Below are positions 9,865-56,710 of a stretch of DNA of 64,000 bases, one piece after another. A model generated the notes under the pieces. That model had not been told where the DNA came from, did not search any database, and worked only from the letters and a program-made list of their open reading frames with translations. Position 1 is the stretch's first letter; each line of letters starts with the position of its first letter. Source of the stretch: Thermodesulfobacteriota bacterium. GTDB lineage: Bacteria > Desulfobacterota_D > UBA1144 > Nemesobacterales > CSP1-2. The translations under genes and the position numbers were made by a program. The DNA is taken from assembly GCA_036397855.1 (NCBI GenBank), contig DASWID010000101.1:289-64288 (forward strand), written 5' to 3'.

Positions 9865-9960
9865 TTGTGTAGATTGAATCCCTGAACGTGAGTCAAGTTT
9901 TCAGAGTAACCTGAATTTCTTCTAAAGGTATTTTTTTCATCCAATATATTCATGAATTTT

Positions 9961-10011
9961 TTACTGGCGGCGGGAGGAATCGAACCTCCGACAAAGGCCT
10001 TATGAGAGCCC
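9961..10011 (-). repeat. attL: truncated copy of the tRNA-Met 3' half (nt 27-72 + 4 nt)
   Basis: Identical to 14657-14707; sequence diverges at 10012. Confidence 0.85.
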
Positions 10012-10033
10012 TTATGGGTTATTGTAACTTTCT

Positions 10034-11116
10034 TTAATCATTAAGTAATTTAGCCCTAACTAGGTGACTTGTGTTCATGTAGGGTTTATTCGGAGCGAAA
10101 TTGACGCTTTCAATGGCTCTCTTTTTATGCTCAGGTGTAGGGTGGGAGTAACGCTTGGTCATAACAATTGACCTATGCCCTAATAGCTCCTGAACGGTAA
10201 CCAGGTCAACTCCATTCATAACAAGCCTTGTAGCAATTGTGTGTCTTAAGTCATGGAACCTACAACGGGATATCTTGGCTTTATTTAAAGCAGTTTCAAA
10301 AGCACTCTTGATTTCTTTGACAGGGCTGCCTTTGTAATTAAAGACATATTCACTGGAAGCATTTTCCTGTAACTCAGTCAATGTTTGCAGTAATGTTTCG
10401 TTGATTGGTATAAATCTAAACTCAAAGTTTTTGGTATCTCTCACGGTGATGGTTCTCTGTTTTAAGTTAACGTCCTCCCATTTAAGGCCTAGAATTTCGC
10501 TTCTCCTCATGCCTGTGCTAACGGCACAAATTAGGATTGGTTTAAGGTGCGGAGCGGCTACTTCATATAGTCTTAAGAAATCCTCTTCACGTAGAATTTG
10601 CATGCGTTGGTTAGAGACCTTAAAGAACTTTACACCCTTCACGGGATTAGCACTAGCTAGACCCCACTCTATCGCTAGGTTAAACATTCTCTTAAGCACG
10701 GTTAACTCTCGATTGATATTTCCCAGCGTCTTGCCCTCATCTTTCCTTTTAGCCTTGAACTGCTCGACAGACCATGAGGTAATATCATCTATACTATGCC
10801 CTTTGAAGAATCGTAACAGTGCCTTGCATATAGTTACGCTTCTCTTATAAGAGCGATGATTTGCTTTTGAATAGTCCAAGTACTTCTCCACTAGCTTTTC
10901 AAAGCCGATTGCCGGTCTCTTGCTCTTAAGATTAAACCTGTCCTGTACCACCTCACCCATCCTTGCCTTCAATGCTTGCTCGGCTTGACCTTTGGTTATC
11001 AAAGCTGTAGAGCCTATCTTCTCTCTGATTTGTTTACCATCCGCATAATAGGCGATATACCAGCTTTTGCCTCTCTTGTAGATGCTGCCCGTACCCCACG
11101 CTCTTCGCTTAGCCAT
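10034..11116 (-). CDS. tyrosine-type site-specific integrase
   Basis: C-terminal catalytic box HDLRHT...LLGH...RYSH; N-terminal AP2/SAM-like arm-binding region. Confidence 0.9.
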   Translation of the reverse strand: MAKRRAWGTGSIYKRGKSWYIAYYADGKQIREKIGSTALITKGQAEQALKARMGEVVQDRFNLKSKRPAIGFEKLVEKYLDYSKANHRSYKRSVTICKALLRFFKGHSIDDITSWSVEQFKAKRKDEGKTLGNINRELTVLKRMFNLAIEWGLASANPVKGVKFFKVSNQRMQILREEDFLRLYEVAAPHLKPILICAVSTGMRRSEILGLKWEDVNLKQRTITVRDTKNFEFRFIPINETLLQTLTELQENASSEYVFNYKGSPVKEIKSAFETALNKAKISRCRFHDLRHTIATRLVMNGVDLVTVQELLGHRSIVMTKRYSHPTPEHKKRAIESVNFAPNKPYMNTSHLVRAKLLND

Positions 11117-11123
11117 TTATCAT

Positions 11124-11321
11124 TTACCTCCCTTTTTTAGGATCTGTTTCGATTGATACACTTTTAATTAAATTATCCTTTTCCATTGCCTGTCTTATCC
11201 AATAACGGACAAGGTCTGAGGAAGTCATTAAATTTTCTTCTGCATAGTTAGTTAAGAACTTAAATTCCTTTGGATGCAACCAGACTTGAAATAACTTTGT
11301 TCTTATTCTTTTTTCCCTCAT
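11124..11321 (-). CDS. ribbon-helix-helix DNA-binding protein (putative excisionase/regulator)
   Basis: Beta strand KLFQVWL followed by two helices as in CopG/Arc; directly upstream of int. Confidence 0.5.
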   Translation of the reverse strand: MREKRIRTKLFQVWLHPKEFKFLTNYAEENLMTSSDLVRYWIRQAMEKDNLIKSVSIETDPKKGR

Positions 11322-11434
11322 GTAATGTTATTATAAATACATTTGATTTGATTGTAAATATCATTGGGATAAAAGGGAAATTTATATAACCTTAATCCAG
11401 AACTCTTTTCTAGTATGATAAAAAATCAAAAATC

Positions 11435-11803
11435 GTGCTATTATTTCCATGTTATATGAGTAAAAATTACGAGTCCTATAAAGAAACTTGTCACATACTA
11501 AATCAGGCAATCGGTGCTCTAGTTATTCATAGGGGAGATATAAGAATACGTCTTATAAACGCATATGTGTTTCACTTGTTTAAATTGGAAGTTGATGATT
11601 TCCCTTGTGAACTTAGAAAGCAATTTAAGTGGGTTAAATCGCAATTAATAAATGAGGGCCGTCTAAAAAAATATGTATACCGAGGTAATTTAATAGACCA
11701 ATTAAAACGGTCTCTCCACGGAAGAAGGTATAAAACACTTGAGAGGATTGCGGAAGCTATACTTGATATCCGTGCCCGATTAGGTGACTACTTAGAGAAT
11801 TAA
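11435..11803 (+). CDS. hypothetical protein (island cargo)
   Basis: ORF only; no recognisable motif. Confidence 0.35.
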   Translation: MLLFPCYMSKNYESYKETCHILNQAIGALVIHRGDIRIRLINAYVFHLFKLEVDDFPCELRKQFKWVKSQLINEGRLKKYVYRGNLIDQLKRSLHGRRYKTLERIAEAILDIRARLGDYLEN

Positions 11804-11911
11804 AAGCCCCCTAATGCGTAATTATTATAAAATGTAGGAGACACACCTTAACCTGATATGATGATATTGACCTTACTTATAGAGTAGTTGACTCCGATTT
11901 TATTTATCCAT

Positions 11912-12475
11912 TTATGAATGCCTGCCTTTAGGGTCTTCGGGTATGGGTATAGGATGTAACTTTATTTTGGTTCTAATTAGAGTTCGTGGTTTATGTATGT
12001 CATTCCAATTCTCCATAATAAACTTAGAGTCAGATTTAGTATTTACATAACCTTCATGATGTGACGCACAATCTATTGAGACTCTTAATGCATCTTCAAT
12101 TTCTGGGTCTAGATATAAGCAATTTTCAGAAAGCCAATCTTGCATCTCAAAGTAAGCTTTATTTAGTTCATCTCGGTTATCATATATTTTGCTCGTAACT
12201 TTGTACCAGTGAGCGTATGCTTTTTGGTGTGCATCTACTATCTTGTCATATGCTATTAACTCTAACTTTTCTTTTCTTTGTCTTTCTGAGATAAGGTAGT
12301 TTGAAAATGAAGTGACCATTGCTCCAATTATTACCCCTAATAATCCAACGATAGCAACATTATCTAATTTTAACAATACTAATATGAGCCAAGCAACTGT
12401 AAATCCTAATGCAAATGCTATTATATTGGAGATGTTTGTAACTATCTTCTCTCTAATCAAAGTTATAATTTTCAT
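11912..12475 (-). CDS. 2-TM membrane protein, candidate SLATT-like effector
   Basis: Two N-terminal TM helices then a ~120-aa soluble helical domain; divergent from the TIR gene. Confidence 0.5.
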   Translation of the reverse strand: MKIITLIREKIVTNISNIIAFALGFTVAWLILVLLKLDNVAIVGLLGVIIGAMVTSFSNYLISERQRKEKLELIAYDKIVDAHQKAYAHWYKVTSKIYDNRDELNKAYFEMQDWLSENCLYLDPEIEDALRVSIDCASHHEGYVNTKSDSKFIMENWNDIHKPRTLIRTKIKLHPIPIPEDPKGRHS

Positions 12476-12545
12476 ATTAACATTCTAAGATTTTATTTAT
12501 TTGATTTCTAGGTGTAATATGCTGCTCCCCAGTAGCCATGTAGTG

Positions 12546-12582
12546 GAGCTTTTTTCACGAGGCACTTATCTTTTTGTTATAT
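12546..12582 (+). repeat. 37-bp perfect direct repeat, copy 1 (gagcttttttcacgaggcacttatctttttgttatat)
   Basis: Identical to 14194-14230. Confidence 0.9.
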
Positions 12583-12844
12583 GCCTTATACAGGCGACGT
12601 AACTCTTTTCGTTGCGACTTCAATAATGCTTACGTTTTATGGTTTCAGGAACACGATGGGCTTTTTGGGGTGTTGTTCCGTATTTTCTCATAGTTACGTG
12701 CTTTTGACGTAAAGGGATATTTTTAAGTATACTCCTATACAAGTAAAAGGGTGATAGGTGTTTGCATAACACCACATACTGGGGGCGTTTATACGAACTT
12801 TAGTTCGTCTAATTATTAGTTAGCCATAAAATCGTAAACATTGG

Positions 12845-13492
12845 ATGATGATAATGAATGCACCAAAGTGTTTCATTAGTTATTCATGGGATAATGATAA
12901 TCATAAAGATTGGGTTAGATTTTTAGCTTCTGAGTTAAGAGCTAGAGGGATCGATGCAAGACTTGATCAGTGGGATACTAAGCTGGGAATAAACCTTCCA
13001 GAGTATATGGAAACCTCAGTTCGTGAATCTGAATACGTCTTACTTATATGCACACCCTTGTTTGCTGAAAAAGCGAATAAGGGTTCTGGGGGTGTAGGCT
13101 ATGAAAAAACAATTGTAACTGGCGAAATATTTTCTGGTGTATCATCCAAGACAAAATTTATCCCTGTTCTTCGTAGTGGTAGCGAATCTGAAGCCATTCC
13201 TTCGTATCTCAGGGGTAAATTTTATATCGATTTTAGAAATGATCAGAATTTTAATGATTCAATTGATAAATTAATAAGAAATATTTTTGATGCTCCAGAA
13301 CACCCACCTCCACCGATTGGAAATCGGCCAAAATTTAATACACAGAGTGCTGGAGTGCGATCGGCACAGAAGGAGGTTCACTTTGACATTACGCGCTTTA
13401 GTAATGCATTTGAATATGCTATAAGCTACAATGGGTTAAGAATGGGAAGAGATGAGGCGCGTCAATGGGCTCTACGAAGATTGGAAGAATAA
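12845..13492 (+). CDS. TIR-like (SEFIR/TIR_2-type) domain protein
   Basis: N-terminal FISYSWDND...WV.FLA.ELR.RGID..LDQWD...YVLLICTP...GGVGYE pattern typical of bacterial TIR/SEFIR folds; ~70-aa C-terminal extension. Confidence 0.7.
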   Translation: MMIMNAPKCFISYSWDNDNHKDWVRFLASELRARGIDARLDQWDTKLGINLPEYMETSVRESEYVLLICTPLFAEKANKGSGGVGYEKTIVTGEIFSGVSSKTKFIPVLRSGSESEAIPSYLRGKFYIDFRNDQNFNDSIDKLIRNIFDAPEHPPPPIGNRPKFNTQSAGVRSAQKEVHFDITRFSNAFEYAISYNGLRMGRDEARQWALRRLEE

Positions 13493-13644
13493 ACAATAGT
13501 TCGCTAACATTTGCTTCAGCCGGCCCCTAAGCGGCGGCGCGATTTTCGGGTTTGCTGGTTTCGGCACAGTTATGTTCATTTTATACGCTTGAGTTGTGAA
13601 AATTCGCGGCGGCTGAGCAAAAGTATCTGGAAGAATACTTAAAT

Positions 13645-14064
13645 TTGGTCGGAAAGGTACTAATTGACTTTGAATACATTGAACTCGCACTGAAACTCTA
13701 TATCGCTGAAACGTATGCCACTATCTCCTCTCGACTAGAGGGGATCGTAACCTTCAAATATGGCTGGGAAGATGTAGAAAACGAACCACTTGACAGGCTC
13801 CTGAATCAATTCTCAAAGATCAGTTCCGATCATCAGCTCGTTAAAGGTCTTGGTCTTCTTCAAAAGGAGCGGAATAAGTTGGCGCATCAGGCATACGTCT
13901 TAACGTTGGAAGAACAGTCAGATCGTGACCACCTTGAAAAGGAATATGCACGTATTACAAAGCCAAAGTCCAAGACTAAGGCGTTAGTTGTGAGAACGAT
14001 GGAAGCGTGCAAAGTGCTCGAAAGTCCATTCTCGAAAACAACAAGAAAAAGTGGGAATACGTGA
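13645..14064 (+). CDS. hypothetical small protein with HEPN-like Rx4H motif (ERNKLAHQ)
   Basis: ORF starts at a TTG (no ATG available); Rx4H motif mid-protein; weak call. Confidence 0.35.
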   Translation: MVGKVLIDFEYIELALKLYIAETYATISSRLEGIVTFKYGWEDVENEPLDRLLNQFSKISSDHQLVKGLGLLQKERNKLAHQAYVLTLEEQSDRDHLEKEYARITKPKSKTKALVVRTMEACKVLESPFSKTTRKSGNT

Positions 14065-14180
14065 CACATCTTGACTATTTAAAATTATGCTAATGAGTTA
14101 AATCTATAAATATGTGTATATCTAAATAGATACTGTTTGTTATTGCTAGCATTAGCCATAATACCCTATTATTGCCCCCA

Positions 14181-14203
14181 GCTCGAGGCATTCGAGCTTT
14201 TTT
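14181..14203 (+). terminator. rho-independent terminator (gctcgag-gcat-tcgagc + T6)
   Basis: Perfect 6-bp stem, 5-nt loop and a U-tract; overlaps the start of 37-bp repeat copy 2. Confidence 0.6.
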
Positions 14204-14230
14204 CACGAGGCACTTATCTTTTTGTTATAT
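14194..14230 (+). repeat. 37-bp perfect direct repeat, copy 2
   Basis: Identical to 12546-12582. Confidence 0.9.
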
Positions 14231-14656
14231 ATTAATATTATTGTCTATTAAAAATAGCGACCTCTCCGGGGCAGGGATATACCCCTTTAAAGCACGCTAC
14301 GCTGACCGAGACGAGCCTCTATCCCGGTGGCTAATAGTAAATAGTGATAAAAATAAATTAGTAAGTTTAGAATGCCGTTGAATCCGGAGTTATCTTTCTT
14401 GGCAAAAGCACTCTACTTTGTGTAGCTTCGCCTTTAGGTAACTTAACTTGTCGTCCTCTAAGTTTCTTGATTACTTATTACATGAAGGAGGGGTACATAT
14501 CTGTGTTCAATATGTGTTTGTAGTGTGTTTATTCTATGGAAAAACCTACCATATAGGAGAAAGATATTGAAAAGTATTGAAACTGGGAATATAGAGGCTT
14601 ATTTCTCTTAACTTCTTGAAATCAAATAAGAATCTTTTGTTTATAATGGGTTATTT

Positions 14657-14707
14657 TTACTGGCGGCGGGAGGAATCGAACCTCCGACAAAGGCCTTATG
14701 AGAGCCC
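14657..14707 (-). repeat. attR: 3' half of the intact tRNA-Met plus 4 flanking nt
   Basis: Identical to 9961-10011. Confidence 0.85.
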
Positions 14708-14732
14708 TGCTCTACCTCTGAGCTACGCCGCC
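14661..14732 (-). tRNA. tRNA-Met (anticodon CAT)
   Basis: Cloverleaf folded by hand: acceptor GGCGGCG/CGCCGCC, D-arm GCTC..GAGC, anticodon loop CTCATAA, T-loop TTCGATT; CCA not encoded; anticodon stem has two G-U pairs. Confidence 0.8.
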
Positions 14733-14899
14733 AAGGTTAGTATTTGGAGTATGTTTCAAGCCAACATAAGGATATTTAACAGTTTTTCTACGCGGGGTTT
14801 ATTTTTATATGTTGATCTGGTCAGTATATCATGGCGGGTCTAACTTTCAAGACGAAACTAGCTTTTTTGTAACAAATTGGGGGTATTAGAAGCGAAATA

Positions 14900-14928
14900 A
14901 ATTTTCCTCTTGACAGATTAAGTAACGT
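14900..14928 (+). promoter_or_regulatory. consensus sigma-70 promoter TTGACA-17-TATAAT
   Basis: Perfect consensus hexamers with 17-nt spacer. Confidence 0.7.
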
Positions 14929-14934
14929 ACTTTA

Positions 14935-15030
14935 TAATCACTTTTAAATTTAAATTTTCAACTTAATGCACTTCATCCTTTATCCTCCTTTAAAGTGGGA
15001 ATGTTTCTAAATCTGGGAGCATTCCCTCTT
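14935..15030 (+). ncRNA. candidate small RNA, copy A (CU-rich anti-SD core AUCCUCCUUUAA + hairpin terminator)
   Basis: Between the promoter at 14900 and the hairpin gtgggaatg...cattccc (14995-15028); about 75% identical to 25512-25605. Confidence 0.5.
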
Positions 15031-18728: not shown

Positions 18729-18969
18729 GCCTTCTATAATAAATTCGAGCAATAATTAATAACCTATCTGTTAAGTTTGGAATAAAAGCATACCCTCATA
18801 TTATTCGGATCCTGTCTGCAATGGCTGGTGGCGTCTTGACAAGGTTAGTGATTAATTGAGAATTTTGCCGAAATATTCTCATAGTTGTGAGATAAGTGGT
18901 TGGTAATCAAAAAGCTATCTGACATTATCTGTCAGGTGGAGTATTGGTAAGTACAATTTAGGTTTACGT

Positions 18970-19090
18970 CTAGAGAGTCAATTTGGGCTTGTTCGTCTTT
19001 GTGAGATTTTCGACGGAATCGTTTACGATGGGAACAGCCCCTAGAACTTGGACATATTTTGTTTGGTAACTCAGTGCTCCCCCCCCATTG
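18970..19090 (-). pseudogene. C-terminal remnant paralogous to the last ~35 codons of the 20902-21360 gene
   Basis: In-frame translation ...SYQTKYVQVLGAVPIVNDSVENLTKTNKPKLTL* versus SYQTKYVQVLGAVPVVKNSVRSFTNTKKPKLTP*; no start codon; G8 homopolymer at the 5' edge. Confidence 0.6.
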
Positions 19091-19272: not shown

Positions 19273-20607
19273 TCAGTTGGCATACTGACCTCTAAACTGA
19301 CCGGTGTCTATAAGCATGATATTCATGCCAAAAGAGGTATTCATGACCTTTATGAATTCGTTAGCTATTAATGCATATCCGGCATTATTTGGATGGACTC
19401 CATCAAGACTGAACGCAGTATTCACATTGTCGATCAGTACGAATTCTCCTGTAAAACCATCAACACCTTGGTTGTTAATCTTGAATAGTAAATCATTAGC
19501 ATCAACTACCGGCACATTCAATTCGAATGCAATATTAGAGATTGATTCATTAAACTCAGCGACAGTATTTTGAATAGTTTCGTCCTCCGAAACTGTCAAT
19601 GTAAACTCACCATTAAAGGGCATGCCGGAGGGAACTAAGCCATTATCTTGAATTTCAATAACTAACTGCTCGGCATCATCCATTGTAAATCCTAGGTCAA
19701 TAAGTGCATTCGCATCTGGAATTCCAACCCCATTATTTTCATACGGCCTGCGGGATGAAAGTAATAGATGAACCACATCGCTCTCATCGGTCAGAATAGG
19801 AATAAATAGACCATCCCCGAAATCGATAGGCTGAAAATTCTGATCATACAATACCGGGACAGGGGTGTTAATTCCCAAGGCCGGAATGGTTGTGAAAATC
19901 CTATCGAAAAAGTTAATGAAAGGAATATCTACAACATCGGGAATATTAGCAACCACTATCGACGCGGATGTGTTGTTTCGTAATTTTGACAGTGAGTCTC
20001 TATACTCAGCATCGAACTCTTGTTCGGGTGTAATCCTATTCAGGTCACCCCCGTGTAATGCAGCACTTATAACATCATTACCTCCAATCCAAAACGAAAT
20101 GATCTCAGGATCTAAATCGATAGCCTGATCTAGCTGTGAACCCATTCCTCGTAAAATTAAGAAACGCAGATCATCAATTCTTGCATCATCATCGATGTCA
20201 AAAAGGGCATCACCCGGAATTCCCAAGTTGTCGTATGGTCTTGGCAACAGCGGATTTATTGCCAAATCGAAAATATCTTCGAGCTGTAAATCGTCTTCTA
20301 CGATTTCACCATTTCTAAACATCAGGGGTGTCTTTCCGGGATTTGCACCTATGCCCGGTCTACCAATCAAAGGCTGTTCGAAATCACCAACTCCAAGCTG
20401 CTGTGCAATGAAAAAAGGGAAGCTGTGCTGCTGAAAATCTATTACTAATCCATTTGATTGGACTCCCGTGGTAAGACTATCACCGACTGCAACGTATTTT
20501 CTTGGCCCAGAATCCACAATATCATTCACAACATCGTCGGTCTCGTCACAACCTGTAAATATCAGAAGATTGACTAAAATAATTAGGGTAAATAAGTTTT
20601 TAATCAT
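19273..20607 (-). CDS. SGNH/GDSL hydrolase family lipoprotein
   Basis: Lipoprotein signal; GDSLT block near the N-terminus; C-terminal DGVHPN block. Confidence 0.6.
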   Translation of the reverse strand: MIKNLFTLIILVNLLIFTGCDETDDVVNDIVDSGPRKYVAVGDSLTTGVQSNGLVIDFQQHSFPFFIAQQLGVGDFEQPLIGRPGIGANPGKTPLMFRNGEIVEDDLQLEDIFDLAINPLLPRPYDNLGIPGDALFDIDDDARIDDLRFLILRGMGSQLDQAIDLDPEIISFWIGGNDVISAALHGGDLNRITPEQEFDAEYRDSLSKLRNNTSASIVVANIPDVVDIPFINFFDRIFTTIPALGINTPVPVLYDQNFQPIDFGDGLFIPILTDESDVVHLLLSSRRPYENNGVGIPDANALIDLGFTMDDAEQLVIEIQDNGLVPSGMPFNGEFTLTVSEDETIQNTVAEFNESISNIAFELNVPVVDANDLLFKINNQGVDGFTGEFVLIDNVNTAFSLDGVHPNNAGYALIANEFIKVMNTSFGMNIMLIDTGQFRGQYAN

Positions 20608-20901
20608 CGGGTTCTCCTAAGATGGCTTGATGCTGTTTTAAAGTTGGTGATATTATTGTTTGAATTGAACTCACTGAGGTTTTTAAACGTACTTAGCATT
20701 ATAAATGTTAAATTCATTACATTCCTTTCGGGATCGGGACTTATTTGATTATCGTGACACAAAAGGGATAAGGATTCAATAGGAAAAATAATGTAATCCT
20801 TTTAGGGCGAAAATGTATGAAAGTATCCGTCGGTTTTATAAAGGTGGGTTGGGGATTTTGTACTGCTACCCTTTTGTCAAGCCTCCAAGTTAGGCTAACC
20901 T

Positions 20902-21360
20902 CTAGGGAGTCAATTTGGGCTTTTTTGTGTTAGTGAAACTACGTACGGAATTCTTCACTACGGGAACCGCCCCTAGAACTTGGACGTATTTTGTTTGGTA
21001 ACTCATTGCTCCCATGCCAAGAGGCATTCCACTTTTGAGATAGGTTTCCTTACTGCGAGGAGGGATTGTGATGGGAAGGACACCAGTTGTACTGCTTACT
21101 TGTTCGCCAGCATTGCCATATGAAGTGGAGTAATAGTTGAGTTTTATTTCAATATCTTTATAAGGTATATCAGCTGTGTTCTCAATCGTAACGTTACTAA
21201 TCATCGCTACCCTCAACGCTGCAAAGTAAGACCAGTCAGTAACTTTGATGTACCACTCTGGATGCTGAATCATTGAAATGGTGGGGTCCGATTCTTGAGC
21301 TTTGGCAAGCGTAGAAAATAGAATCAATAAGATGAAGAGTTTTGTGGCTATATGGTTCAA
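20902..21360 (-). CDS. secreted hypothetical protein
   Basis: Signal peptide; its 3' end is duplicated at 18970-19090. Confidence 0.5.
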   Translation of the reverse strand: MNHIATKLFILLILFSTLAKAQESDPTISMIQHPEWYIKVTDWSYFAALRVAMISNVTIENTADIPYKDIEIKLNYYSTSYGNAGEQVSSTTGVLPITIPPRSKETYLKSGMPLGMGAMSYQTKYVQVLGAVPVVKNSVRSFTNTKKPKLTP

Positions 21361-21592: not shown

Positions 21593-21859
21593 GTGAGACA
21601 TGATTCGTTAAGCAGAGCTTTTCACGGAGCTTGTGAGAGGTCTAATATCAAAGGCTTGAGATTCCATGACCTAAGGCATACTTGTGCAACAAGATTAGTA
21701 GAAGCTGGGGTTCCACTTCATACTGTTTCGAAACTACTAGGTCATTCTACAATTAGGATGACCGAAAGATATAGCCAACCCGAAGAAAGTTTGAAGGGAG
21801 CAGTCGAAATTCTGGAAAAACTAGAAACTCGCTTTAGCCAATCGAAAAGAATTATTTGA
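21593..21859 (+). pseudogene. tyrosine integrase C-terminal fragment 1
   Basis: RFHDLRHTCATRLVEAGVPLHTVSKLLGHSTIRMTERYSQ without an N-terminal domain. Confidence 0.8.
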
Positions 21860-21919
21860 AATAATCGATAGAAGTACTGCTTTCAAAATCAGACCTATAT
21901 ATTTGCATAAACGCTTGCG

Positions 21920-22084
21920 ATGAATGGAGTTGATCTGATAGCAGTTCAGGAACTCTTAGGACAAAAATCTATAGTTATAAAAAAGCATTATTCACGCTCA
22001 ATACCGGCGTATAAGAGAAGGGCCGTTGAATCAATTGCTTTAACAAAAAAAGTGCGGAATAAGACAAATGGCAAGAATCCGTAG
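21920..22084 (+). pseudogene. tyrosine integrase C-terminal fragment 2 (paralog of the 10034-11116 integrase)
   Basis: MNGVDLIAVQELLGQKSIVIKKHYSRS...KRRAVESIAL aligns to NGVDLVTVQELLGHRSIVMTKRYSH...KKRAIESV of the intact integrase. Confidence 0.8.
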
Positions 22085-22139
22085 ACATGTTTGTTAAGCA
22101 TTATTAGTCAACTTAAGATGCGGACTTACCCGTGTTTCG

Positions 22140-22182
22140 CTCCAAAGCCAGAGGTTGCGGGTACGAATCCTGCCTCGCCCGC
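22140..22182 (+). other. tRNA-like 3' fragment / att remnant (T-arm-like GCGGGTACGAATCCTGC + acceptor-like CTCGCCC)
   Basis: About 60 nt downstream of int fragment 2, in the same int-att orientation as island 1; no matching 5' half found. Confidence 0.4.
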
Positions 22183-22317
22183 TTTATTTATTCTTATGAT
22201 TTAGGAAAGTTATAGATTATTAGGGGAGGTTTTATTAACGGAAAAATAATTAAGGCGTCCGTATACGTGTCTAAGAGACGTGCTCCAACGAATACTATAT
22301 AGACATCCAATTAATTT

Positions 22318-23301
22318 TTATTTCAATTCATTCAGTTTTTTTTGGAACGCTCTTAATTTATCGATAATATGATCGAACGTGGGATATGCACCGAAAATCA
22401 TTTCCTCCATCGCTTCGTAATCTTCCATCAATGACTTAAGCCTTGATTCGTCGGGTATTAGCTTTATTGTTCTAGGGGTTGCCAGATCATATTTTGCCCA
22501 ATTACTGTAATAAAAACGTTTTTTAAAATTCACAACATCATCCAACAACTTCAAATTCTTTAATCCCTTCATCTCAATATCTGTATCCAACATTTTATAA
22601 ACATCATAATAATGCCTCGAATAACGAGCTGGATGTGACTTTCCAGCTGGCCTGTGTGCCTCAACATGCAGTATTGTTACTTTCTCCCAAAATGTTCTTT
22701 CAGGAACGATAGAAACGACGTTAGCAAACGAATTTTCAAATTTTTCTGGAAATACCTCTGCTGCATAAGGCCGTATCGAGTATTTAGAGCACGGAACCAT
22801 TGAACTGATGGGCCCAATTTCTAATCGTATTTCTGGCCGCAAGTATGTACCAGAAAAAAGTTTGGGATATTGGATAATAACTGTTTGCCCATCGTATGAA
22901 TCCACTCTTGCGTCGCACGGCGGTTGCATTAAACCATTCAAAATGGGCAACAAGTCTCTGCCGATATAGTCCTCCGCTAATTTGTTTAATTTCTTGTTGA
23001 AAATATCTTGTTGTGTGTTGCTTCGGCCTTCGTATGGATCCTCATCGGTCAACACCGACCAATCTAATACCAAATCTATATCTTCTGAAAAACGATCAAT
23101 TACTTGGAAGCACTTTGAGAGAGTTGTTCCACCTTTAAACCTAAACAACTCTTTTAGGTCGTCATCCTCGAAGAGCTTCATTAATGCCCAGCAGATCCAA
23201 AAGTCTTTTTCTATCGCTGCTCCTTGCATCCCTTTACGTGCAGCTGTTTCAAGAAAAAGTTCTTCACGCTCGTTTTTGTTAAAAGTAGCTACTTTCTTCA
23301 T
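22318..23301 (-). CDS. AbiEii/AbiGii nucleotidyltransferase toxin (DUF1814)
   Basis: FKGGTTLSK...RFSEDIDL nucleotidyltransferase motif; 4-bp overlap with the upstream AbiEi gene. Confidence 0.8.
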   Translation of the reverse strand: MKKVATFNKNEREELFLETAARKGMQGAAIEKDFWICWALMKLFEDDDLKELFRFKGGTTLSKCFQVIDRFSEDIDLVLDWSVLTDEDPYEGRSNTQQDIFNKKLNKLAEDYIGRDLLPILNGLMQPPCDARVDSYDGQTVIIQYPKLFSGTYLRPEIRLEIGPISSMVPCSKYSIRPYAAEVFPEKFENSFANVVSIVPERTFWEKVTILHVEAHRPAGKSHPARYSRHYYDVYKMLDTDIEMKGLKNLKLLDDVVNFKKRFYYSNWAKYDLATPRTIKLIPDESRLKSLMEDYEAMEEMIFGAYPTFDHIIDKLRAFQKKLNELK

Positions 23302-23906
23302 TCCTTATTTTTAAATATAGCTTTAATAATTTCATAGACCCAGCTTGTTGTGTATTTTGTATCTTTCAAAATACGCCCGTGTTTTTCGGAACGAAAATAA
23401 TTGAATATGGTTTGCCTTTGTTGTTTGGTCAGTGTTTTATTACCTAATGCTTTAATCGCTTGAACCACTAATTCACTCTCTGGGTATTTCAGACCTATAT
23501 CTTTTAAGGTTGTTTTCTTAAATTCCAGTTCAATATTGCCAATCTGATACACCTTACTCTTACCATCAGTGTAGTAAAGATATTTAGTAGGAACCTGTGT
23601 TGATAGACCTAACACGTTCAACGCCGCATTACCTGAAATCTGAATTTTCCATCCAAATTTCCGGGCGAAAACCTGTGCCACTTGATCAACGTCTGGGCTT
23701 AAATCTTGCTCTAATAATTTGCTGTATTTTGGGTAATCGTATATACCACGTATAACCCTGCGAATGTGACCTTTATCTAATAAGCGACTCAAAACCTTAT
23801 CAATGGTATTTGCATTCCCCAAATCGGCAAAATCATTTTTGAAAAACGCCCAACCCCTACCATTGCCATAAATCCTGCTTATTACTTTATTTTCAATGGA
23901 TTGCAT
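23298..23906 (-). CDS. AbiEi family antitoxin / transcriptional regulator
   Basis: N-terminal ISRIYGNGRGWAFFKNDFADLG...IRRVIRGIYDYP pattern of AbiEi (DUF6088-like). Confidence 0.75.
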   Translation of the reverse strand: MQSIENKVISRIYGNGRGWAFFKNDFADLGNANTIDKVLSRLLDKGHIRRVIRGIYDYPKYSKLLEQDLSPDVDQVAQVFARKFGWKIQISGNAALNVLGLSTQVPTKYLYYTDGKSKVYQIGNIELEFKKTTLKDIGLKYPESELVVQAIKALGNKTLTKQQRQTIFNYFRSEKHGRILKDTKYTTSWVYEIIKAIFKNKE

Positions 23907-24039
23907 AATTTTAAGCTTATTATTCTGTCAGAAAAAAGATACCATTTTTCTGACAGGAAACAAGTATTTCCTGATCATGCACTGAGTGTTTTAACTGATG
24001 GGATTGAGGTTGTGAGTTGAATTAGAGACAGAGTTGTGT

Positions 24040-24153
24040 ATATATACCTAACTCTGTCTCTAATCTCGCGGAGTGATGAATTATGTTACAATAGTGTGTT
24101 GTATGATGGTTTGTATATATACCTTACCATCATACAACACACTATTGTAAAGA
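24040..24153 (+). promoter_or_regulatory. two perfect palindromic operators (11-bp arms gagacagagtt/aactctgtctc; 24-bp arms ttacaatagtgtgttgtatgatgg/ccatcatacaacacactattgtaa)
   Basis: Read directly; both spacers contain gtatatatacct; immediately upstream of the ATG at 24156. Confidence 0.7.
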
Positions 24154-24155
24154 AA

Positions 24156-25040
24156 ATGAAGCGAACTCAAAAAGATTGGGCTTCCGAGTTTCGAATTTAC
24201 CTACGGGAAATTCCGCCAAAGGTATTTAGCTGCGTAGAGCTCGAACCCCTTTTTGATAATCTTAGGAGACGAAAGATCCTTCCCTCTCGACTTAGCTATA
24301 ATAAATTTCTAGCTGAAGTAATAAGTAGAAATATGATTAATAAAACCAACATAAGATATGTGGGCAAAGCAAATTCGAGAAGAAAAGAGTTTATCCGCTA
24401 CACCTATAAGTCACCCTCATCATTCTCTATTGCATTATCACTACGTTCGAGGAGTTATCTATCTCATATCAGTGCATTGTTTTTGCATGGTCTGACTGAG
24501 CAGCCCCCCGAGACAATAATTGTAAACAAGGAACAGTCTGCAAAGAACAGTTCAAACGAATTAACCCAAGCGGGTATAGACCGAGCATTCAAAAAAGCCG
24601 CTCGTCAATCTAATTATATCTGGGCGTGGAAAGATTCGCGTTTTATACTTTTGAATGGAAAACAAACTGGGGATTTTGGAGTCATCAATATAAAAATTGA
24701 CACTGGAGAGCATCTTCGAGCTACAAACCTCGAGAGAACATTGGTAGACATTGTCGTAAGACCTAGCTACTCCGGAGGGGTAATTGAGATAGTAGAAGCT
24801 TATCGACGTGCTCGAAAAGTCCTTTCCACAAAGAAAATTGTTCAAATTTTAAAGCGACTAGACTATGCATACCCATATCATCAGTCTATAGGATTCGTGA
24901 TGGAACGTGCAGGTTTCGAGAAACAACAGTTAGATCTACTTAGGAATGAAGGTATCAACTTTGACTTTTATCTTGACTATCAGATCAGAAATAAGGCCTA
25001 CGACGATACTTGGAGATTATATTTCCCAAAGGGGCTTTGA
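24156..25040 (+). CDS. AbiEi-like winged-helix regulator (orphan antitoxin-like)
   Basis: YLSHISALFLHGLTEQ motif resembles the AbiEi N-terminal wHTH; start moved from 24036 to Met41 because the annotated N-terminus covers the palindromes. Confidence 0.5.
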   Translation: MKRTQKDWASEFRIYLREIPPKVFSCVELEPLFDNLRRRKILPSRLSYNKFLAEVISRNMINKTNIRYVGKANSRRKEFIRYTYKSPSSFSIALSLRSRSYLSHISALFLHGLTEQPPETIIVNKEQSAKNSSNELTQAGIDRAFKKAARQSNYIWAWKDSRFILLNGKQTGDFGVINIKIDTGEHLRATNLERTLVDIVVRPSYSGGVIEIVEAYRRARKVLSTKKIVQILKRLDYAYPYHQSIGFVMERAGFEKQQLDLLRNEGINFDFYLDYQIRNKAYDDTWRLYFPKGL

Positions 25041-25280
25041 TTTATTAAGCTCGAAACGCAGCAAAGAACTTTTAATTAATTTCGATCATTGTGAGTTTTT
25101 TATTTATTTCGAAATAAGTTGGTATCTAGTTTTTGTATTGCATTTTTCTTAGCTTCTTGCTTTGTGAGGCTCAGATATTTATCTTGAAAACTATAATAAC
25201 TCAAGAAAGTTTGTAGCCAAATCTGTAGCCCATTGAAATTGATGAGGAGGCGATAGGACGTAACCCCCTGATTTTATTGG

Positions 25281-25356
25281 TGGAGATGAGGGGATTCGAA
25301 CCCCCGACCTCCGCCTTGCGAAGGCGGCGCTCTCCCAAACTGAGCTACATCCCCAC
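25281..25356 (-). tRNA. tRNA-Ala (anticodon CGC)
   Basis: GGGGATG acceptor with G3-U70, anticodon loop TTCGCAA, T-loop TTCGAAT, CCA encoded. Confidence 0.85.
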
Positions 25357-52799: not shown

Positions 52800-54053
52800 T
52801 CAAAACCTAAAAGCAACTCCGAGCAACGGTCCGTACATCCAGGTTTTTGCTTCAAAGCGAGTATTCCCACTTCCATTGGCGTAGTTGTCGTATAGAGCTC
52901 GGAATCCGATCAACGGGGTTATGCGGTACCAGCTTAATTCATAGCCCACTACAGCGATTATATTCCATGAAAACTTAGATGAAAAACTTAGATCAAATCC
53001 TCCTATATCACTTCTAAACTCCAAAAAAAGTTTCTTATAAAAATCAAGCCTTGCCCGTCCGCCGACGATAAAATCGAACCAGTTCTGACTTTGATCTATT
53101 TCTGATGGTAAGATGCCTAAGGGGCCATGGATGTCTAACTCGTTATTCAGATGCCAGTAACGCCCTCCGGCAATTATATCGAAGGTGACAGATGGCTCCG
53201 ATCTTTGGACGAATTGATTGTATTGACTCCCGACAGGCCAGGTACCTACCCGGTATAATCCTCCAAATTCCTCGATAAACATAGTGGTCGTCAAGTTGGC
53301 ATTTATGGAGCCAGAGCGTCGCAGTGTGACATCCTGGTTTATGGCCAGCTTCGAAAACATGGTATCCGCAAATATTCCGAATTTACCTTTCCACCATACT
53401 TCGCCGTGAAACATCGCTGCAATATCTAGGTGCTCAAGCAAATCAATGAAAGTCGCGTGGCCGTCAGCACCCCTTCCATTAACTACTATGTCTTCGCTAA
53501 TACTGCTAAGCCATCCATAGGGTATCAAGATAAATTCCCAATCTTTTGATTTAGAGGTTTGAGGGTTGGAATTAGCCTCGGCGTCATTGGCAGCGTAAAC
53601 ACCGGTCACAGAGGTTTGACTGACTCTTTCAGTTAAGTATTTGTCGTTAATACCAAATTTATCTGATAATCCTTGGGATACAGGGATTCTTTCGCCAAGA
53701 AAAATACCGGAGATATGCCTGCTTGATTCTCCAGGAAGATCGGGCATTAAAAGCGCTCGGTTAGCCTTTGTCGCCCCTTCGGATCCAAAATGATCTTTGG
53801 TGTATTCCCGATATCCTGGATCTACTCGTTCGGGAGGGATTTTATTTTCCGAAATGTCCGGTTCATATAAACATAATCCACCACACTGACTATAAGCGGA
53901 TTCGCTGCCAAGGGTAAAAATCAGTAAAGATATTATTAATGTCACAAGTAAAATAGGGATCCTAATCATTTCGAAGGGGGGAAGTGAATCGCGACACCTG
54001 GTCTTTTTTTCTATATTAGACCTACAATTTTTAACTGTGACAATTTCTCTCAT
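52800..54053 (-). CDS. putative outer-membrane beta-barrel protein
   Basis: Signal/TM at the N-terminus; alternating amphipathic strands; C-terminal aromatic residue (..GVAFRF). Confidence 0.4.
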   Translation of the reverse strand: MREIVTVKNCRSNIEKKTRCRDSLPPFEMIRIPILLVTLIISLLIFTLGSESAYSQCGGLCLYEPDISENKIPPERVDPGYREYTKDHFGSEGATKANRALLMPDLPGESSRHISGIFLGERIPVSQGLSDKFGINDKYLTERVSQTSVTGVYAANDAEANSNPQTSKSKDWEFILIPYGWLSSISEDIVVNGRGADGHATFIDLLEHLDIAAMFHGEVWWKGKFGIFADTMFSKLAINQDVTLRRSGSINANLTTTMFIEEFGGLYRVGTWPVGSQYNQFVQRSEPSVTFDIIAGGRYWHLNNELDIHGPLGILPSEIDQSQNWFDFIVGGRARLDFYKKLFLEFRSDIGGFDLSFSSKFSWNIIAVVGYELSWYRITPLIGFRALYDNYANGSGNTRFEAKTWMYGPLLGVAFRF

Positions 54054-54505
54054 AGCTTTATTTCCTCCTGTCTCTCCTTGAATTTAATCAATACTACTAA
54101 ATGCAAGAATATTCCAAAAAATCGTTTTAATTGCCACCTCAGATCCTGGTGCGTAAAGACGTCTGATACTTTGAGTAGGCATAAAATACAAGATATATCC
54201 GTTCGTCCTGAGCAGTGAGCCCCTCGATAAACTCGGGACAGGCATGTCGAACTGTCGAAGGACGAATCGCACCCGTCGACTAGTAATCCTCGCAAAAGAA
54301 TAATATGGTCCCTTCAATTGCAATCGATATAGTTTAACTCGATTTATACCAGTAATTTGCGGCGGTCCATACTTATCGTAATCCTCCCGATTGATGAGGG
54401 AGAATTCAGGGGTGATTCACAATTCCTTTAATCCTTTCCCGTGTATAGGCGACGGACGACTGTAGTGACGGTTTACGTCACAACAACTCCAAACCACAAA
54501 ATCCA

Positions 54506-55270
54506 CTATTGAGGCGGTTGGACCACCACATAGGTGACCTGACCCCCCTGATACATTGGTTGGTACCAGGTCGAGCCGACCTGATAATAGGTCACCCCGC
54601 CCACGACCACCTGGGTCTGGGGGGCCGACATTGCACTGAACGCGGCCGCCGTCATCGTCGAACCGATGACTGCGCCAGTTACGGCCCCGGCGGCGTAGGC
54701 GCCACCATAGCCATAGCCGTACCCTCCCCCGCCATGGTAGTGGTAGTCATCGTAGTTGTCGGCGTAATTCTGCCGGCTTTGCTGTGCGTCCTGTCCATAA
54801 CTCTGTCGGCTTTGCTGCGCGTCCTGCCCATAACTCTGTCGGCTTTGCTGCGCGTCCTGCCCGTAGCTTTGCCGTGAGGACTGGCGCTCGCTTTGATTAG
54901 CCGAGCCAGTCGACTGCATTTGTTGTGCTGAGGACTGACGGCTTGACTGCATGCTCGAGCGATTGGATTGCCAATTCCCGCTACTGGCGGCACCGCTTTG
55001 AGAAAAGCCACCCCCACCGCCCCAGTCGCGAGAACCTCCGCCACCGCCCCCCGCCTCGCGGGAACCTCCTCCACCGCCTCCTCCCCAACCGCCAGAACCT
55101 CCTCTCCCACCGAAACTCCCACCACTGGCGCCACTGCTCCGCGAGAATCCTCCTCCGCCTCCCCCGCCACCGCCTCCAAAACCCCTGGCATCAACGTTTG
55201 TGGCCGCAAACAGAAACATCAAGAACAGGCCATTCCATAATGCAAACTGTACCCATATTTTCGATCTCAT
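54506..55270 (-). CDS. secreted Gly-rich / QS-rich repeat protein
   Basis: Signal peptide, poly-Gly tracts, four SRQSYGQDAQQ repeats, hydrophobic Gly-zipper-like tail. Confidence 0.5.
   Translation of the reverse strand: MRSKIWVQFALWNGLFLMFLFAATNVDARGFGGGGGGGGGGFSRSSGASGGSFGGRGGSGGWGGGGGGGSREAGGGGGGSRDWGGGGGFSQSGAASSGNWQSNRSSMQSSRQSSAQQMQSTGSANQSERQSSRQSYGQDAQQSRQSYGQDAQQSRQSYGQDAQQSRQNYADNYDDYHYHGGGGYGYGYGGAYAAGAVTGAVIGSTMTAAAFSAMSAPQTQVVVGGVTYYQVGSTWYQPMYQGGQVTYVVVQPPQ
54767..54870. repeat. 33-bp tandem repeat (about 3.3 copies) encoding the SRQSYGQDAQQ repeats
   Basis: ctctgtcggctttgctgcgcgtcctgcccataa repeated head to tail. Confidence 0.85.
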
Positions 55271-55272
55271 AA

Positions 55273-56079: not shown

Positions 56080-56407
56080 TTTGCACCTCCTTGTCTTTGT
56101 TTAATTTCTTTATTCTGAGCTACATCTTATATTTATGTTCGTTGCCACTGAGGCTCGGACTTCTATGAAAATAAAGTGCAAGTAAAATATCATGCTTTCG
56201 GCTCAGCCATCCATCCGTGCCTTCTATTATCCAAAAATATTTCGGATAATAACGGTATACGGGAATCTATGCTAAATACCTTACCATTCCTCTTTATTTG
56301 GGGCGATACTTAAACGCCATATTATATCACAGAACCTCTTTGAAAGCGTGTTACTGACTTGCCGGGTCGCGTTGACCCGAATTAATCTCTGATCCTTAAA
56401 GGATCAA

Positions 56408-56710
56408 TCAGGGAATCATACCGCATTCGAACAATTTGTTGGCGATAGGGGCCGCTACTAAGTTGATGAACGCAGTGCGCATTTGAGGATTATTTTGCAG
56501 TAATGTCACCACTCGCTGCTCCATCTCTGCCTTTTCCCCTGACGGTGGTTGGCTTTTCTCCATTGCCAACTGCTGACAGGAAGACGTTTGGTATTTCTGG
56601 ATCACTTTCTGGGCGATCTTCTCCATTATCGGGTACGACTCCTGAGCGCTGGCGATGCCAACGTAAATCAGCAAAGCAATCAGAGCGAGCACGTAATAAT
56701 ATCTGGGCAT
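56408..56710 (-). CDS. small exported hypothetical protein
   Basis: Signal peptide; ORF only. Confidence 0.35.
   Translation of the reverse strand: MPRYYYVLALIALLIYVGIASAQESYPIMEKIAQKVIQKYQTSSCQQLAMEKSQPPSGEKAEMEQRVVTLLQNNPQMRTAFINLVAAPIANKLFECGMIP

What the first reader, a model, noticed from the sequence alone, without database searches (positions are those of the whole stretch)
12546..14230. Perfect 37-bp direct repeats bracket the TIR + small-protein unit
gagcttttttcacgaggcacttatctttttgttatat occurs identically at 12546-12582 and 14194-14230, flanking a 1.65-kb unit. The second copy overlaps an intrinsic terminator. Identical repeats of this length inside an AT-rich island suggest a cassette boundary, for example a recombination hotspot that exchanges defense modules or a duplicated regulatory/terminator module. 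Either would be a mechanism for swapping the cargo.
Basis: seen in the sequence. Interest (0 to 1): 0.6.

Follow-up and report, generated by a model that had tools for sequence, protein, structure and literature searches.

The report
Insertion scar flanking a defence gene
Two identical 37-base repeats do flank a small anti-phage (SEFIR/TIR) gene module inside a 4.7-kb mobile island at a tRNA-Met gene, but they look like a passive leftover of how the module was pasted in, not an active cassette-swapping site.

Summary
The 37-mer occurs exactly twice in the window, at 12546-12582 and 14194-14230, and the flanks are no more alike than shuffled sequence.

The pair lies inside a 4.7-kb integrative island of a Thermodesulfobacteriota MAG. 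The island has its own 55-bp att repeats (9958-10012 and 14654-14708, the 3' part of tRNA-Met), an integrase and a small ORF in the excisionase position.

The bracketed 1.6-kb unit is a mosaic, not a co-evolved pair:
- a bSEFIR gene with its own promoter-like site;
- a GC-rich spacer;
- a decayed copy of a 148-aa gene that has unrelated neighbours elsewhere.

The left edge of the repeat cuts the terminator stem after orf139 (only 5 nt of the 3' arm are repeated). Copy 1 has no canonical hairpin, and no sigma-70-like site lies in either copy.

Five independent assemblies carry both copies and the full unit. Three have a T>C change in copy 1 only. No cassette-less variant or second cargo was found. 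The 37-mer is absent from three public collections and from related islands.

Best reading: a recombination scar of module acquisition. Copy 2 also supplies the terminator T-tract. Cassette swapping is unsupported but not excluded. Interest is low.

The parts
12546..12582 (+). Copy 1 of the 37-bp direct repeat. It lies in the divergent intergenic region between orf187 (-) and the bSEFIR gene (+). It has no canonical terminator hairpin. Position 12551 is polymorphic (T/C) in the population.
14194..14230 (+). Copy 2 of the 37-bp direct repeat. Its first 5 nt are the distal part of the 3' arm of the orf139 terminator stem and the next bases are the T-tract. It is invariant in all assemblies.
14180..14204 (+). 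Intrinsic-terminator-like hairpin AGCTCGA-GGCAT-TCGAGCT plus T-run. The repeat boundary (14194) falls inside the 3' arm of the stem.
12583..12844 (+). 262-nt leader upstream of the bSEFIR gene. It holds the unit's own promoter-like site (TTGACG-18-TATACT, 12704-12733). No Rfam match.
12845..13492 (+). bSEFIR/TIR-domain protein of 215 aa (gene callers use the ATG at 12854, giving 212 aa). Its length is within the family norm.
   Evidence: Pfam TIR_2 8e-20 and SEFIR 7e-15; PADLOC bSEFIR 2.9e-75; homologues are 147-375 aa, many about 215 aa
13493..13610 (.). GC-rich (49%) spacer of unknown origin. It ends exactly where homology to the 148-aa gene family begins. It does not fold like an attC site.
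13611..14064 (+). orf139, a decayed copy of a 148-aa gene. The ancestral ATG is replaced by GCG, and the first usable start is TTG at 13645. A 10-nt deletion shifts the frame of the C-terminus. There is a weak HEPN-like R-x4-H hint only.
14231..14653 (.). 423-nt non-coding right arm of the island, between copy 2 and attR. It probably contains an attP arm. No ORF with a credible start and no Rfam match.
9958..10012 (.). attL: displaced copy of the 3' 49 nt of tRNA-Met plus 6 nt. It is an exact 55-bp repeat of 14654-14708.
14654..14733 (-). attR core (14654-14708) within the intact tRNA-Met(CAT) gene (14660-14733).
10034..11116 (-). Tyrosine integrase of the island, 360 aa.
   Evidence: Pfam Phage_integrase 1.3e-35; PHROG 1 integrase 1e-76
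11124..12475 (.). Island backbone genes: a 65-aa ORF in the excisionase position (11124-11321, -), a 115/122-aa ORF (11435-11803, +) and the 187-aa membrane-anchored orf187 (11912-12475, -). None has an assigned function.

Best explanation
The two 37-mers are a recombination scar. They are the short terminal redundancy left when a self-contained, moron-like cargo segment was pasted into the cargo end of a small tRNA-Met integrative island. That segment runs leader with promoter-like site, bSEFIR gene, GC-rich spacer, decayed 148-aa-family gene, terminator.

The sequence natively belongs to the tail of the module's terminator: the last 5 nt of the stem, the T-tract and 26 nt downstream. I cannot separate three routes that all give this structure:
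(a) illegitimate insertion of a slightly longer-than-unit piece of a circular or tandemly repeated donor;
(b) tandem accretion or duplication followed by a deletion that left only 37 bp of one copy;
(c) a single crossover of a circular module at a pre-existing homologous 37-mer.

Today the repeat has no dedicated sequence-specific function. Copy 2 simply provides the T-tract of the terminator after orf139, and copy 1 is a free-drifting remnant. As a by-product, the pair is a substrate for rare homology-mediated loop-out of the 1.65-kb unit.

Shown: the repeat, its sharp edges, the island anatomy, the mosaic nature of the unit, and the lack of variants. Inferred: the insertion history and the present lack of function.
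For: - The edges have no functional logic. The left edge lies inside the 3' arm of the terminator stem (stem 14180-14198, repeat starts at 14194), so copy 1 carries a stem fragment and T-run without the 5' arm. The flanks are no more similar than shuffles.
- No sigma-70-like site overlaps either copy. The unit has its own promoter-like site at 12704-12733.
- The unit is a patchwork with other breakpoints. Homology to the 148-aa gene family (83-84% DNA identity) starts abruptly at 13611, one codon after the lost ATG, and ends near 14038. There is also a 10-nt frameshifting deletion. GC differs between segments.
- bSEFIR and orf139 are not a conserved pair. orf139 homologues follow unrelated genes. 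A 50%-identical bSEFIR is followed by an unrelated membrane protein.
- The copies drift independently: copy 1 has T>C at 12551 in 3 of 5 assemblies, and the change breaks its T-run, while copy 2 is invariant.
- There are only two copies in the window and none in related islands.
- The raw material for route (b) exists in this integrase family. L062 holds two perfect tandem copies of a 6.9-kb element with three att sites. L060 shows another small module, an MNT/HepT pair, bracketed by about 85-nt direct repeats.
Against: - No donor, pre-insertion or intermediate form was found, so the history is inferred from one static structure.
- All available sequences are at least 99.6% identical, so there is no comparative power at intermediate distance.
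- The negative database scans are imperfect. The JGI contig that does carry the repeat (L031) was not returned by the metagenome scan.
- Promoter, operator or recombination-site activity cannot be excluded from sequence alone.
- A CCCCAG motif lies 12-13 nt upstream of both copies. This could be a trace of older, longer homology.
Confidence: 0.5

Rival explanations
1. The 37-mers are active or latent recombination sites that let defence modules be excised as circles and exchanged within the island cargo region. They could act as att-like sites for the island integrase or a host recombinase working in trans, or as preferred homology patches. This is the first reader's cassette-boundary idea and would be a bacterial analogue of T4 PeSL mini-circles.
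For: - Perfect direct repeats bracket a defence module inside a mobile island that encodes a tyrosine integrase 1.4 kb away.
- Islands with related integrases carry different defence cargo, for example restriction-modification genes in L035.
- Another DR-bracketed module exists in L060.
- PeSL-mediated mini-circles are documented in T4-type phages (PMC2839356).
Against: - There is no recombinase inside the unit.
- The island integrase has its own, unrelated 55-bp tRNA att.
- By eye, the 37-mer shows no inverted-repeat core structure.
- No cassette-less or alternative-cargo allele appears in 5 independent assemblies or in the 10 contigs carrying orf187.
- The 37-mer was not found elsewhere.
- Copy 1 is drifting.
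- The repeat edge cuts a terminator stem, so it is not a module edge.
Confidence: 0.15
2. The 37-mer is a duplicated regulatory element kept for its function: a terminator tail plus a promoter or operator. Copy 1 would insulate or drive the bSEFIR gene. Copy 2 would terminate orf139 and perhaps start a transcript into the right arm.
For: - Copy 2 supplies part of the stem and the T-tract of a canonical terminator.
- By eye, the 37-mer contains TTCACG-N17-TTATAT and TGTTATAT, a weak -35/-10 or extended -10 resemblance.
- Copy 1 sits 262 nt upstream of the bSEFIR start.
Against: - The promoter scan scores no site in either copy. The -10 lacks the conserved A at position 2 or T at position 6 in every register. 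A better site lies inside the unit at 12704-12733.
- Copy 1 has no canonical hairpin, and its T-run is broken by the T>C variant in 3 of 5 assemblies.
- No ORF or Rfam RNA follows copy 2, and a transcript from there would run antisense into tRNA-Met.
- Functional constraint does not explain 37/37 identity with sharp edges.
Confidence: 0.15
3. The repeat is chance or an assembly artefact.
For: None.
Against: None of 100 shuffles gives any match. The structure is reproduced in five independent assemblies from different samples, with a copy-specific SNP.
Confidence: 0.01

Closest known systems
Phage 'morons' and accretion scars in genomic islands: autonomous promoter-gene-terminator units inserted between backbone genes, sometimes with short flanking duplications
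   Same: - It is a self-contained transcription unit: its own promoter-like site, a defence gene and an intrinsic terminator.
- It sits in the variable cargo end of an integrase-bearing element.
- It is compositionally distinct from the backbone and mosaic inside.
   Different: - The host element is a 4.7-kb tRNA-Met island of a Thermodesulfobacteriota MAG, not a prophage.
- The flanking redundancy is unusually clean (37/37).
- The mechanism of insertion is unknown.
PeSL (promoter-early stem-loop) regulatory cassettes of T4-type phages (Arbiol et al. 2010, PMC2839356; Comeau et al. 2014, PMC4122927)
   Same: These are short direct repeats with a terminator association. They flank non-essential genes in a plastic region, and recombination between them can loop out the genes between.
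   Different: - PeSLs number about 50 per genome.
- They contain a consensus sigma-70 promoter and a complete stem-loop.
- They sit immediately upstream of an ORF's Shine-Dalgarno sequence.
- They coincide with indels between close relatives.
- None of these is met here.
attL/attR identity blocks of site-specifically integrated elements, including tandem arrays and integrase-less cis-mobilisable remnants
   Same: Exact direct repeats flank a discrete DNA segment inside or next to an element that encodes a tyrosine integrase. Tandem accretion is seen in this integrase family (L062).
   Different: - The island's real att is the 55-bp tRNA-Met block.
- The 37-mer is unrelated to it and is not part of a tRNA or other recognised RNA gene.
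- No recombinase lies between the copies.
- No empty or excised form was seen.
Integron gene cassettes and attC sites, which carry many anti-phage systems (bioRxiv 10.1101/2024.07.02.601686)
   Same: Both are small cargo modules in changing contexts. The full-length relatives of orf139 sit in same-strand gene arrays next to unrelated genes. In L048 they are bounded by GC-rich imperfect palindromes with GCTAAC...GTTGGGC ends.
   Different: - The 37-mer is not palindromic and has no R''/R' pairing partner.
- There is no integron integrase: the NCBIfam integron-integrase model scores 63.8 against a cut-off of 265.
- The window copy of orf139 has lost both cassette ends.

Membership tests
PeSL-type mobile regulatory cassette | The repeat contains a strong sigma-70 consensus promoter | tested here: not met
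   The promoter scan lists no site overlapping 12546-12582 or 14194-14230. The nearest site is 12704-12733, inside the unit. PeSL definition from PMC2839356.
PeSL-type mobile regulatory cassette | The repeat contains a complete stable stem-loop (terminator/attenuator) | tested here: not met
   Only 5 nt of the 3' arm lie in the repeat. A hairpin is called at copy 2 only (14180-14198). Folds around both copies have z-scores of about -1.
PeSL-type mobile regulatory cassette | Many copies per genome, concentrated in plastic regions and directly upstream of an ORF's SD and start | tested here: not met
   There are two copies in 64 kb even at 3 mismatches. Copy 1 is 262 nt from the bSEFIR ATG, and no ORF follows copy 2. 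The rest of the genome is not available.
PeSL-type mobile regulatory cassette | Insertions, deletions or replacements between close relatives map to the repeats | tested here: not met
   Five independent assemblies, and all 10 contigs read that carry orf187, have the same arrangement.
att sites of a site-specifically integrated element | Direct repeats at both ends of a discrete segment | tested here: met
   Exact 37-mers at 12546 and 14194 with sharp edges.
att sites of a site-specifically integrated element | A cognate recombinase is encoded in the element, or the repeat matches the att of a nearby one | tested here: not met
   The genes between the copies are bSEFIR and orf139 only. The island integrase lies outside the unit and is associated with an unrelated 55-bp tRNA-Met repeat.
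att sites of a site-specifically integrated element | Empty-site or excised-circle forms exist in the population | tested here: inconclusive
   None was seen among the assembled contigs. Raw reads could not be examined, and k=31 unitigs break at the repeat regardless of any variation (L033, L045).
Integron attC site | Imperfect palindrome with R''(RYYYAAC)/R'(GTTRRRY) cores that folds as a hairpin in single-stranded DNA | tested here: not met
   The 37-mer ends in GTTATAT, but no complementary R'' or palindromic structure lies upstream of either copy. The control attC-like sites in L048 fold with z-scores of -5.0 and -2.1.
Integron attC site | An integron integrase (IntI) lies nearby | tested here: not met
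   The island integrase scores 63.8 bits on TIGR02249 (cut-off 265) and 47.7 on PRK15417 (cut-off 435).
tRNA-targeting integrative genomic island (context of the repeat) | A tyrosine integrase plus a direct repeat of the 3' part of a tRNA gene that delimits the element | tested here: met
   Integrase at 10034-11116. Exact 55-bp repeat at 9958-10012 and 14654-14708 covering the 3' 49 nt of tRNA-Met. The related locus L036 also has an integrase next to a tRNA-Met fragment.
bSEFIR anti-phage protein (cargo) | N-terminal SEFIR domain matching the bSEFIR profile | tested here: met
   PADLOC bSEFIR 2.9e-75 over residues 2-179. Pfam SEFIR 6.7e-15 and TIR_2 8.2e-20.
bSEFIR anti-phage protein (cargo) | Confers phage resistance | not testable with these tools
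   The only experimental evidence is for the Bacillus sp. NIO-1130 protein against phi29 (bioRxiv 10.1101/2022.05.11.491447).

The most novel reading that the evidence does not exclude
The 37-mers are working recombination sites. They would let the bSEFIR unit leave as a 1.65-kb mini-circle and let other defence modules carrying the same terminator tail enter. That would be a PeSL-like cassette-exchange system operating in the cargo bay of small tRNA-integrated islands in bacteria.
Probability: 0.06. Interest if true: 0.6.

Novelty: new member of a known kind. Interest (0 to 1): 0.2.

Why it matters
If the scar reading is right, the locus is a tidy but ordinary example of how small defence genes pile up in the cargo end of tRNA-integrated islands. 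Cut-and-paste events leave short duplications and decayed gene fragments behind.

Its practical value is modest. It marks the limits of an acquired bSEFIR module in an uncultured Thermodesulfobacteriota lineage. It also shows that the neighbouring small ORF is a broken passenger, not a partner of the TIR protein. That should prevent a false two-gene-system annotation.

Only if the repeats proved to be active exchange sites would this bear on the open question of how defence islands shuffle their content.

Tried and rejected
- **Public collection scans.** Exact scans for the core of the 37-mer found nothing: the 30-mer in 185,579 species-representative genomes, and the 23-mer in JGI metagenome contigs and in IMG/VR. 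The metagenome scan is not exhaustive. It missed the JGI contig L031 that does carry the repeat.
- **Phage and plasmid records.** blastn of 12476-14660 against phage records gave nothing. Against plasmid records it gave only a weak TIR-gene hit.
- **Rfam.** At gathering threshold over the window, and at E<=1 over 12400-14800, only tRNAs were found.
- **Cassette-less, empty-site or alternative-cargo alleles.** Exact-protein look-ups of the bSEFIR protein, orf187, the sigma factor and orf139 returned only the same arrangement. The M23 peptidase ORF as I delimited it is not on record.
- **Relatives at 90% identity or more.** None exist for any island protein outside this population.
- **More distant islands.** Islands with 63-67% identical integrases (L034-L036), and 106 more distant loci, have no 37-mer and no right-arm homologue.
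- **bSEFIR truncated and orf139 its lost C-terminus.** Rejected. Many homologues are about 215 aa, and orf139 belongs to a separate 148-aa family.
- **GC-rich spacer or 37-mer as attC.** Rejected on folding and the absence of a core site.
- **Two 14-nt matches to 47.3-47.5 kb.** Both lie inside a coding gene and are chance.
- **Structure of the 148-aa family.** The model (pLDDT 74, all-helical) gave no significant PDB match. The HEPN assignment rests only on E of about 0.03-0.06 profile hits and an R-x4-H motif.
Full report
**Observation**

The 37-mer GAGCTTTTTTCACGAGGCACTTATCTTTTTGTTATAT is present, exact, on the + strand at 12546-12582 and 14194-14230, 1,648 bp apart. With up to three mismatches on both strands these remain the only two matches in the 64-kb window, and none of 100 dinucleotide-preserving shuffles gives any.

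A whole-window repeat scan shows only one other exact repeat of comparable length, a 55-bp pair discussed below.

Identity ends abruptly. A MAFFT alignment of the surroundings shows nothing beyond the 37 nt. Smith-Waterman scores of the 60-, 150- and 300-nt flanks are no better than shuffled flanks.

**Context**

The window comes from a Thermodesulfobacteriota MAG. The proteins are identical to NCBI HEX9666404-HEX9666408, on a contig of 64,857 bp.

- tRNA-Met(CAT) lies at 14660-14733 on the minus strand.
- Its 3' 49 nt plus 6 downstream nt (14654-14708) are repeated exactly at 9958-10012.
- Between these 55-bp att repeats lies a 4.7-kb integrative island with:
  - a tyrosine integrase (10034-11116, minus; Pfam 1.3e-35, PHROG 1 at 1e-76);
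  - a 65-aa ORF in the excisionase position;
  - two ORFs of unknown function, one of them the membrane-anchored orf187;
  - copy 1 of the 37-mer;
  - a SEFIR/TIR gene;
  - a 139-aa ORF;
  - copy 2;
  - 423 nt of non-coding DNA up to attR.

So the 37-mers are internal to a mobile island and are not its att sites.

**What the repeats bracket**

The TIR protein (12845-13492) is a bSEFIR family member: PADLOC 2.9e-75, Pfam SEFIR 6.7e-15 and TIR_2 8.2e-20. This family has one experimentally shown single-gene anti-phage member (bioRxiv 10.1101/2022.05.11.491447). Its 215 aa are normal for the family, whose homologues are 147-375 aa with many around 215. Its nearest relatives outside this population are only about 50% identical.

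The small protein is not a partner.
- Its relatives are 148 aa and 74-81% identical.
- They follow unrelated genes elsewhere: a 274-aa protein in L046/L047 and an NAD-binding protein in L048.
- A 50%-identical bSEFIR (P0026) is followed by an unrelated membrane protein.

At the DNA level, homology to the 148-aa genes (83-84%) begins abruptly at 13611 and ends near 14038.
- The ancestral ATG is replaced by GCG. The conserved residues AEQKYLEEYLNL continue upstream of the only usable start, TTG at 13645.
- A 10-nt deletion shifts the frame of the C-terminus.

orf139 is therefore a decayed fragment.

A 118-nt spacer at 49% GC separates it from the bSEFIR gene, and GC varies from 33% to 49% between segments.

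The unit has its own promoter-like site (TTGACG-18-TATACT, 12704-12733) and a canonical terminator (stem 14180-14198 plus T-run). It is thus a moron-like, mosaic cargo segment.

**Anatomy of the repeat itself**

In copy 2 the first five bases (GAGCT) are the distal part of the 3' arm of the terminator stem (AGCTCGA-GGCAT-TCGAGCT). The next bases are the T-tract, and 26 further nt follow. The left edge of the repeat therefore cuts a functional element in two.

Copy 1 has the stem fragment and T-run but no matching 5' arm, and no terminator is called there.

The promoter scan reports no sigma-70-like site overlapping either copy. The TTCACG-N17-TTATAT and TGTTATAT resemblances that I noticed by eye lack the conserved -11A or -7T in every register.

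No Rfam family matches the region at E<=1, and no credible ORF follows copy 2.

The 37-mer is not palindromic and has no RYYYAAC partner, so it is not attC-like. The control elements in L048 fold with z-scores of -5.0 and -2.1. It shows no similarity to the 55-bp att core.

**Population and comparative evidence**

Exact-protein look-ups recovered the locus from five independent long assemblies: ERZ27256989, ERZ27256875, ERZ27256991, ERZ27256953 and JGI 3300031965. Several Logan unitigs were also recovered. All are 99.6-100% identical to the window.

- All long contigs have the island at the same site, both 37-mers and the full unit.
- None of the 10 contigs read that carry orf187 lacks the cassette.
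- Copy 1 carries T>C at 12551 in three of the five assemblies, breaking its T-run. Copy 2 never varies.
- The k=31 unitigs end exactly where a 37-bp repeat must break a de Bruijn graph (L033 ends at 12575; L045 spans 12553-14223). This is an assembler effect and not biological variation.

No protein of the island has a relative at 90% identity or more outside this population.

Core pieces of the 37-mer have no exact match in the GTDB species representatives, the JGI metagenome collection or IMG/VR. One caveat applies: the metagenome collection evidently lacks the JGI contig that does contain it.

Islands with 63-67% identical integrases carry other cargo, for example restriction-modification genes in L035. 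One of them (L036) has a tRNA-Met fragment beside the integrase. None has the 37-mer or the right arm.

**Mechanism**

The sharp, functionally arbitrary edges, the mosaic interior, the independent drift of copy 1, the lack of further copies and the lack of allelic variation all fit best with a recombination scar. On this reading the module's terminator tail was duplicated when the segment entered the island.

Three routes give this structure and cannot be separated here:
1. illegitimate insertion of a slightly longer-than-unit piece of a circular or tandem donor. In that donor orf139's terminator would be followed directly by the bSEFIR leader. This route needs no pre-existing homology;
2. tandem accretion or duplication followed by a deletion;
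3. a single crossover of a circular module at a pre-existing 37-mer.

Tandem accretion does occur in this integrase family. L062 has two perfect 6.9-kb tandem copies with three att sites. Another small module bracketed by direct repeats exists in L060: an MNT/HepT pair flanked by about 85-nt copies of the 3' end of a mod gene.

Today copy 2 serves as the terminator T-tract and copy 1 appears functionless. The pair could mediate rare homology-driven loss of the unit, but this is inferred and was not observed. I put about 0.5 on this reading.

**Rivals**

- An active cassette-exchange site (about 0.15). It is attractive by analogy with PeSL mini-circles in T4-type phages (PMC2839356). But each PeSL-defining feature I could test is not met. 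No cognate recombinase, alternative cargo or empty allele was found.
- A conserved regulatory duplicate (about 0.15). It explains copy 2's T-tract but not the exact 37/37 identity, the missing hairpin and drifting T-run at copy 1, or the absence of a scored promoter.
- Artefact or chance. This is excluded.

**Comparison and novelty**

This works like a moron or accretion scar in a tRNA-integrated genomic island. It is not a PeSL, not an attC site, and not the island's att. It is a new instance of a known kind of structure.

The cassette-boundary idea is reasonable in the historical sense, in that the repeats bound an acquired segment.

Interest is low, at about 0.2. The most novel surviving reading is a PeSL-like exchange system in bacterial island cargo bays. 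I give it about 6%, and it would merit about 0.6 if true.

Noticed in passing
window 13611-14064; L046 1476-2032; L048 1607-2163: orf139 is a decayed copy of a 148-aa, all-helical gene with a weak HEPN-like R-x4-H motif. It has lost its ATG and has a 10-nt frameshifting deletion. Full-length relatives sit behind unrelated genes. In L048 they are bounded by GC-rich imperfect palindromes (GCTAAC...GTTGGGC; ssDNA fold z-scores -5.0 and -2.1) that look like integron attC sites. L046 is less clear.
   Followed up: partly
window 18954-19081 and 20886-21013: A second pair of direct repeats (about 130 nt, 82% identical) brackets a single gene, the GDSL-lipase-like ORF at 19273-20607 (-). The right copy overlaps the 3' end of ORF 20902-21360. 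Its nature is unknown, and it has no Rfam hit at gathering threshold.
   Followed up: partly
window 21593-25354: This looks like a second, decayed island. It holds an 88-aa integrase C-terminal fragment (21593-21859), an AbiEii/DUF6088 pair (22318-23906), a perfect 25-nt inverted repeat with a 15-nt spacer (24086-24150), and tRNA-Ala (25278-25354).
   Followed up: no
window 54000-64000: GC content jumps from about 39% to 55-64%. The region contains a 33-nt x3 tandem repeat (54765-54863) and an approximately 2.68-kb tandem paralogous duplication (59.2-61.3 kb against 62.0-64.0 kb, 73-77% identical). It could be a foreign segment or a chimeric join.
   Followed up: no
L060 2617-3462: L060 is an island whose integrase is 49% identical and lies next to tRNA-Asp/Val. 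There, an MNT/HepT toxin-antitoxin pair is inserted between the mod and res genes of a type III R-M system, upstream of a second MNT/HEPN pair. It is bracketed by about 85-nt direct repeats (about 88% identical, 35 nt exact) that duplicate the 3' end of mod.
   Followed up: partly
L062 294-14200: Two perfect tandem copies of a 6.9-kb element with three copies of a 46-nt tRNA-Ser-derived att (integrase 39% identical). This is direct evidence for tandem accretion in this integrase family.
   Followed up: no
window 10014-10029 and 14646-14661: The motif ATGGGTTATT lies on the island side of both att cores. In the excised circle it would flank the 55-bp core as a direct repeat, so it is a candidate integrase-binding site.
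   Followed up: no
L001 (= window 9872-14959), sample ERZ27256953: This k=141 contig starts at 9872, exactly 140 nt before the last base of the attL core (10012). That is what a graph branch at the core/island junction would produce. It hints at an island-free or alternative allele in that sample. The right end (14959) does not fit the same logic.
   Followed up: no
Metagenome-contig collection: The JGI contig Ga0326597_10016880 (L031) contains the 37-mer and an identical integrase. Neither the DNA-pattern scan nor the integrase scan returned it, although another contig of the same metagenome was returned (L092). Negative scans of that collection are therefore not exhaustive.
   Followed up: yes
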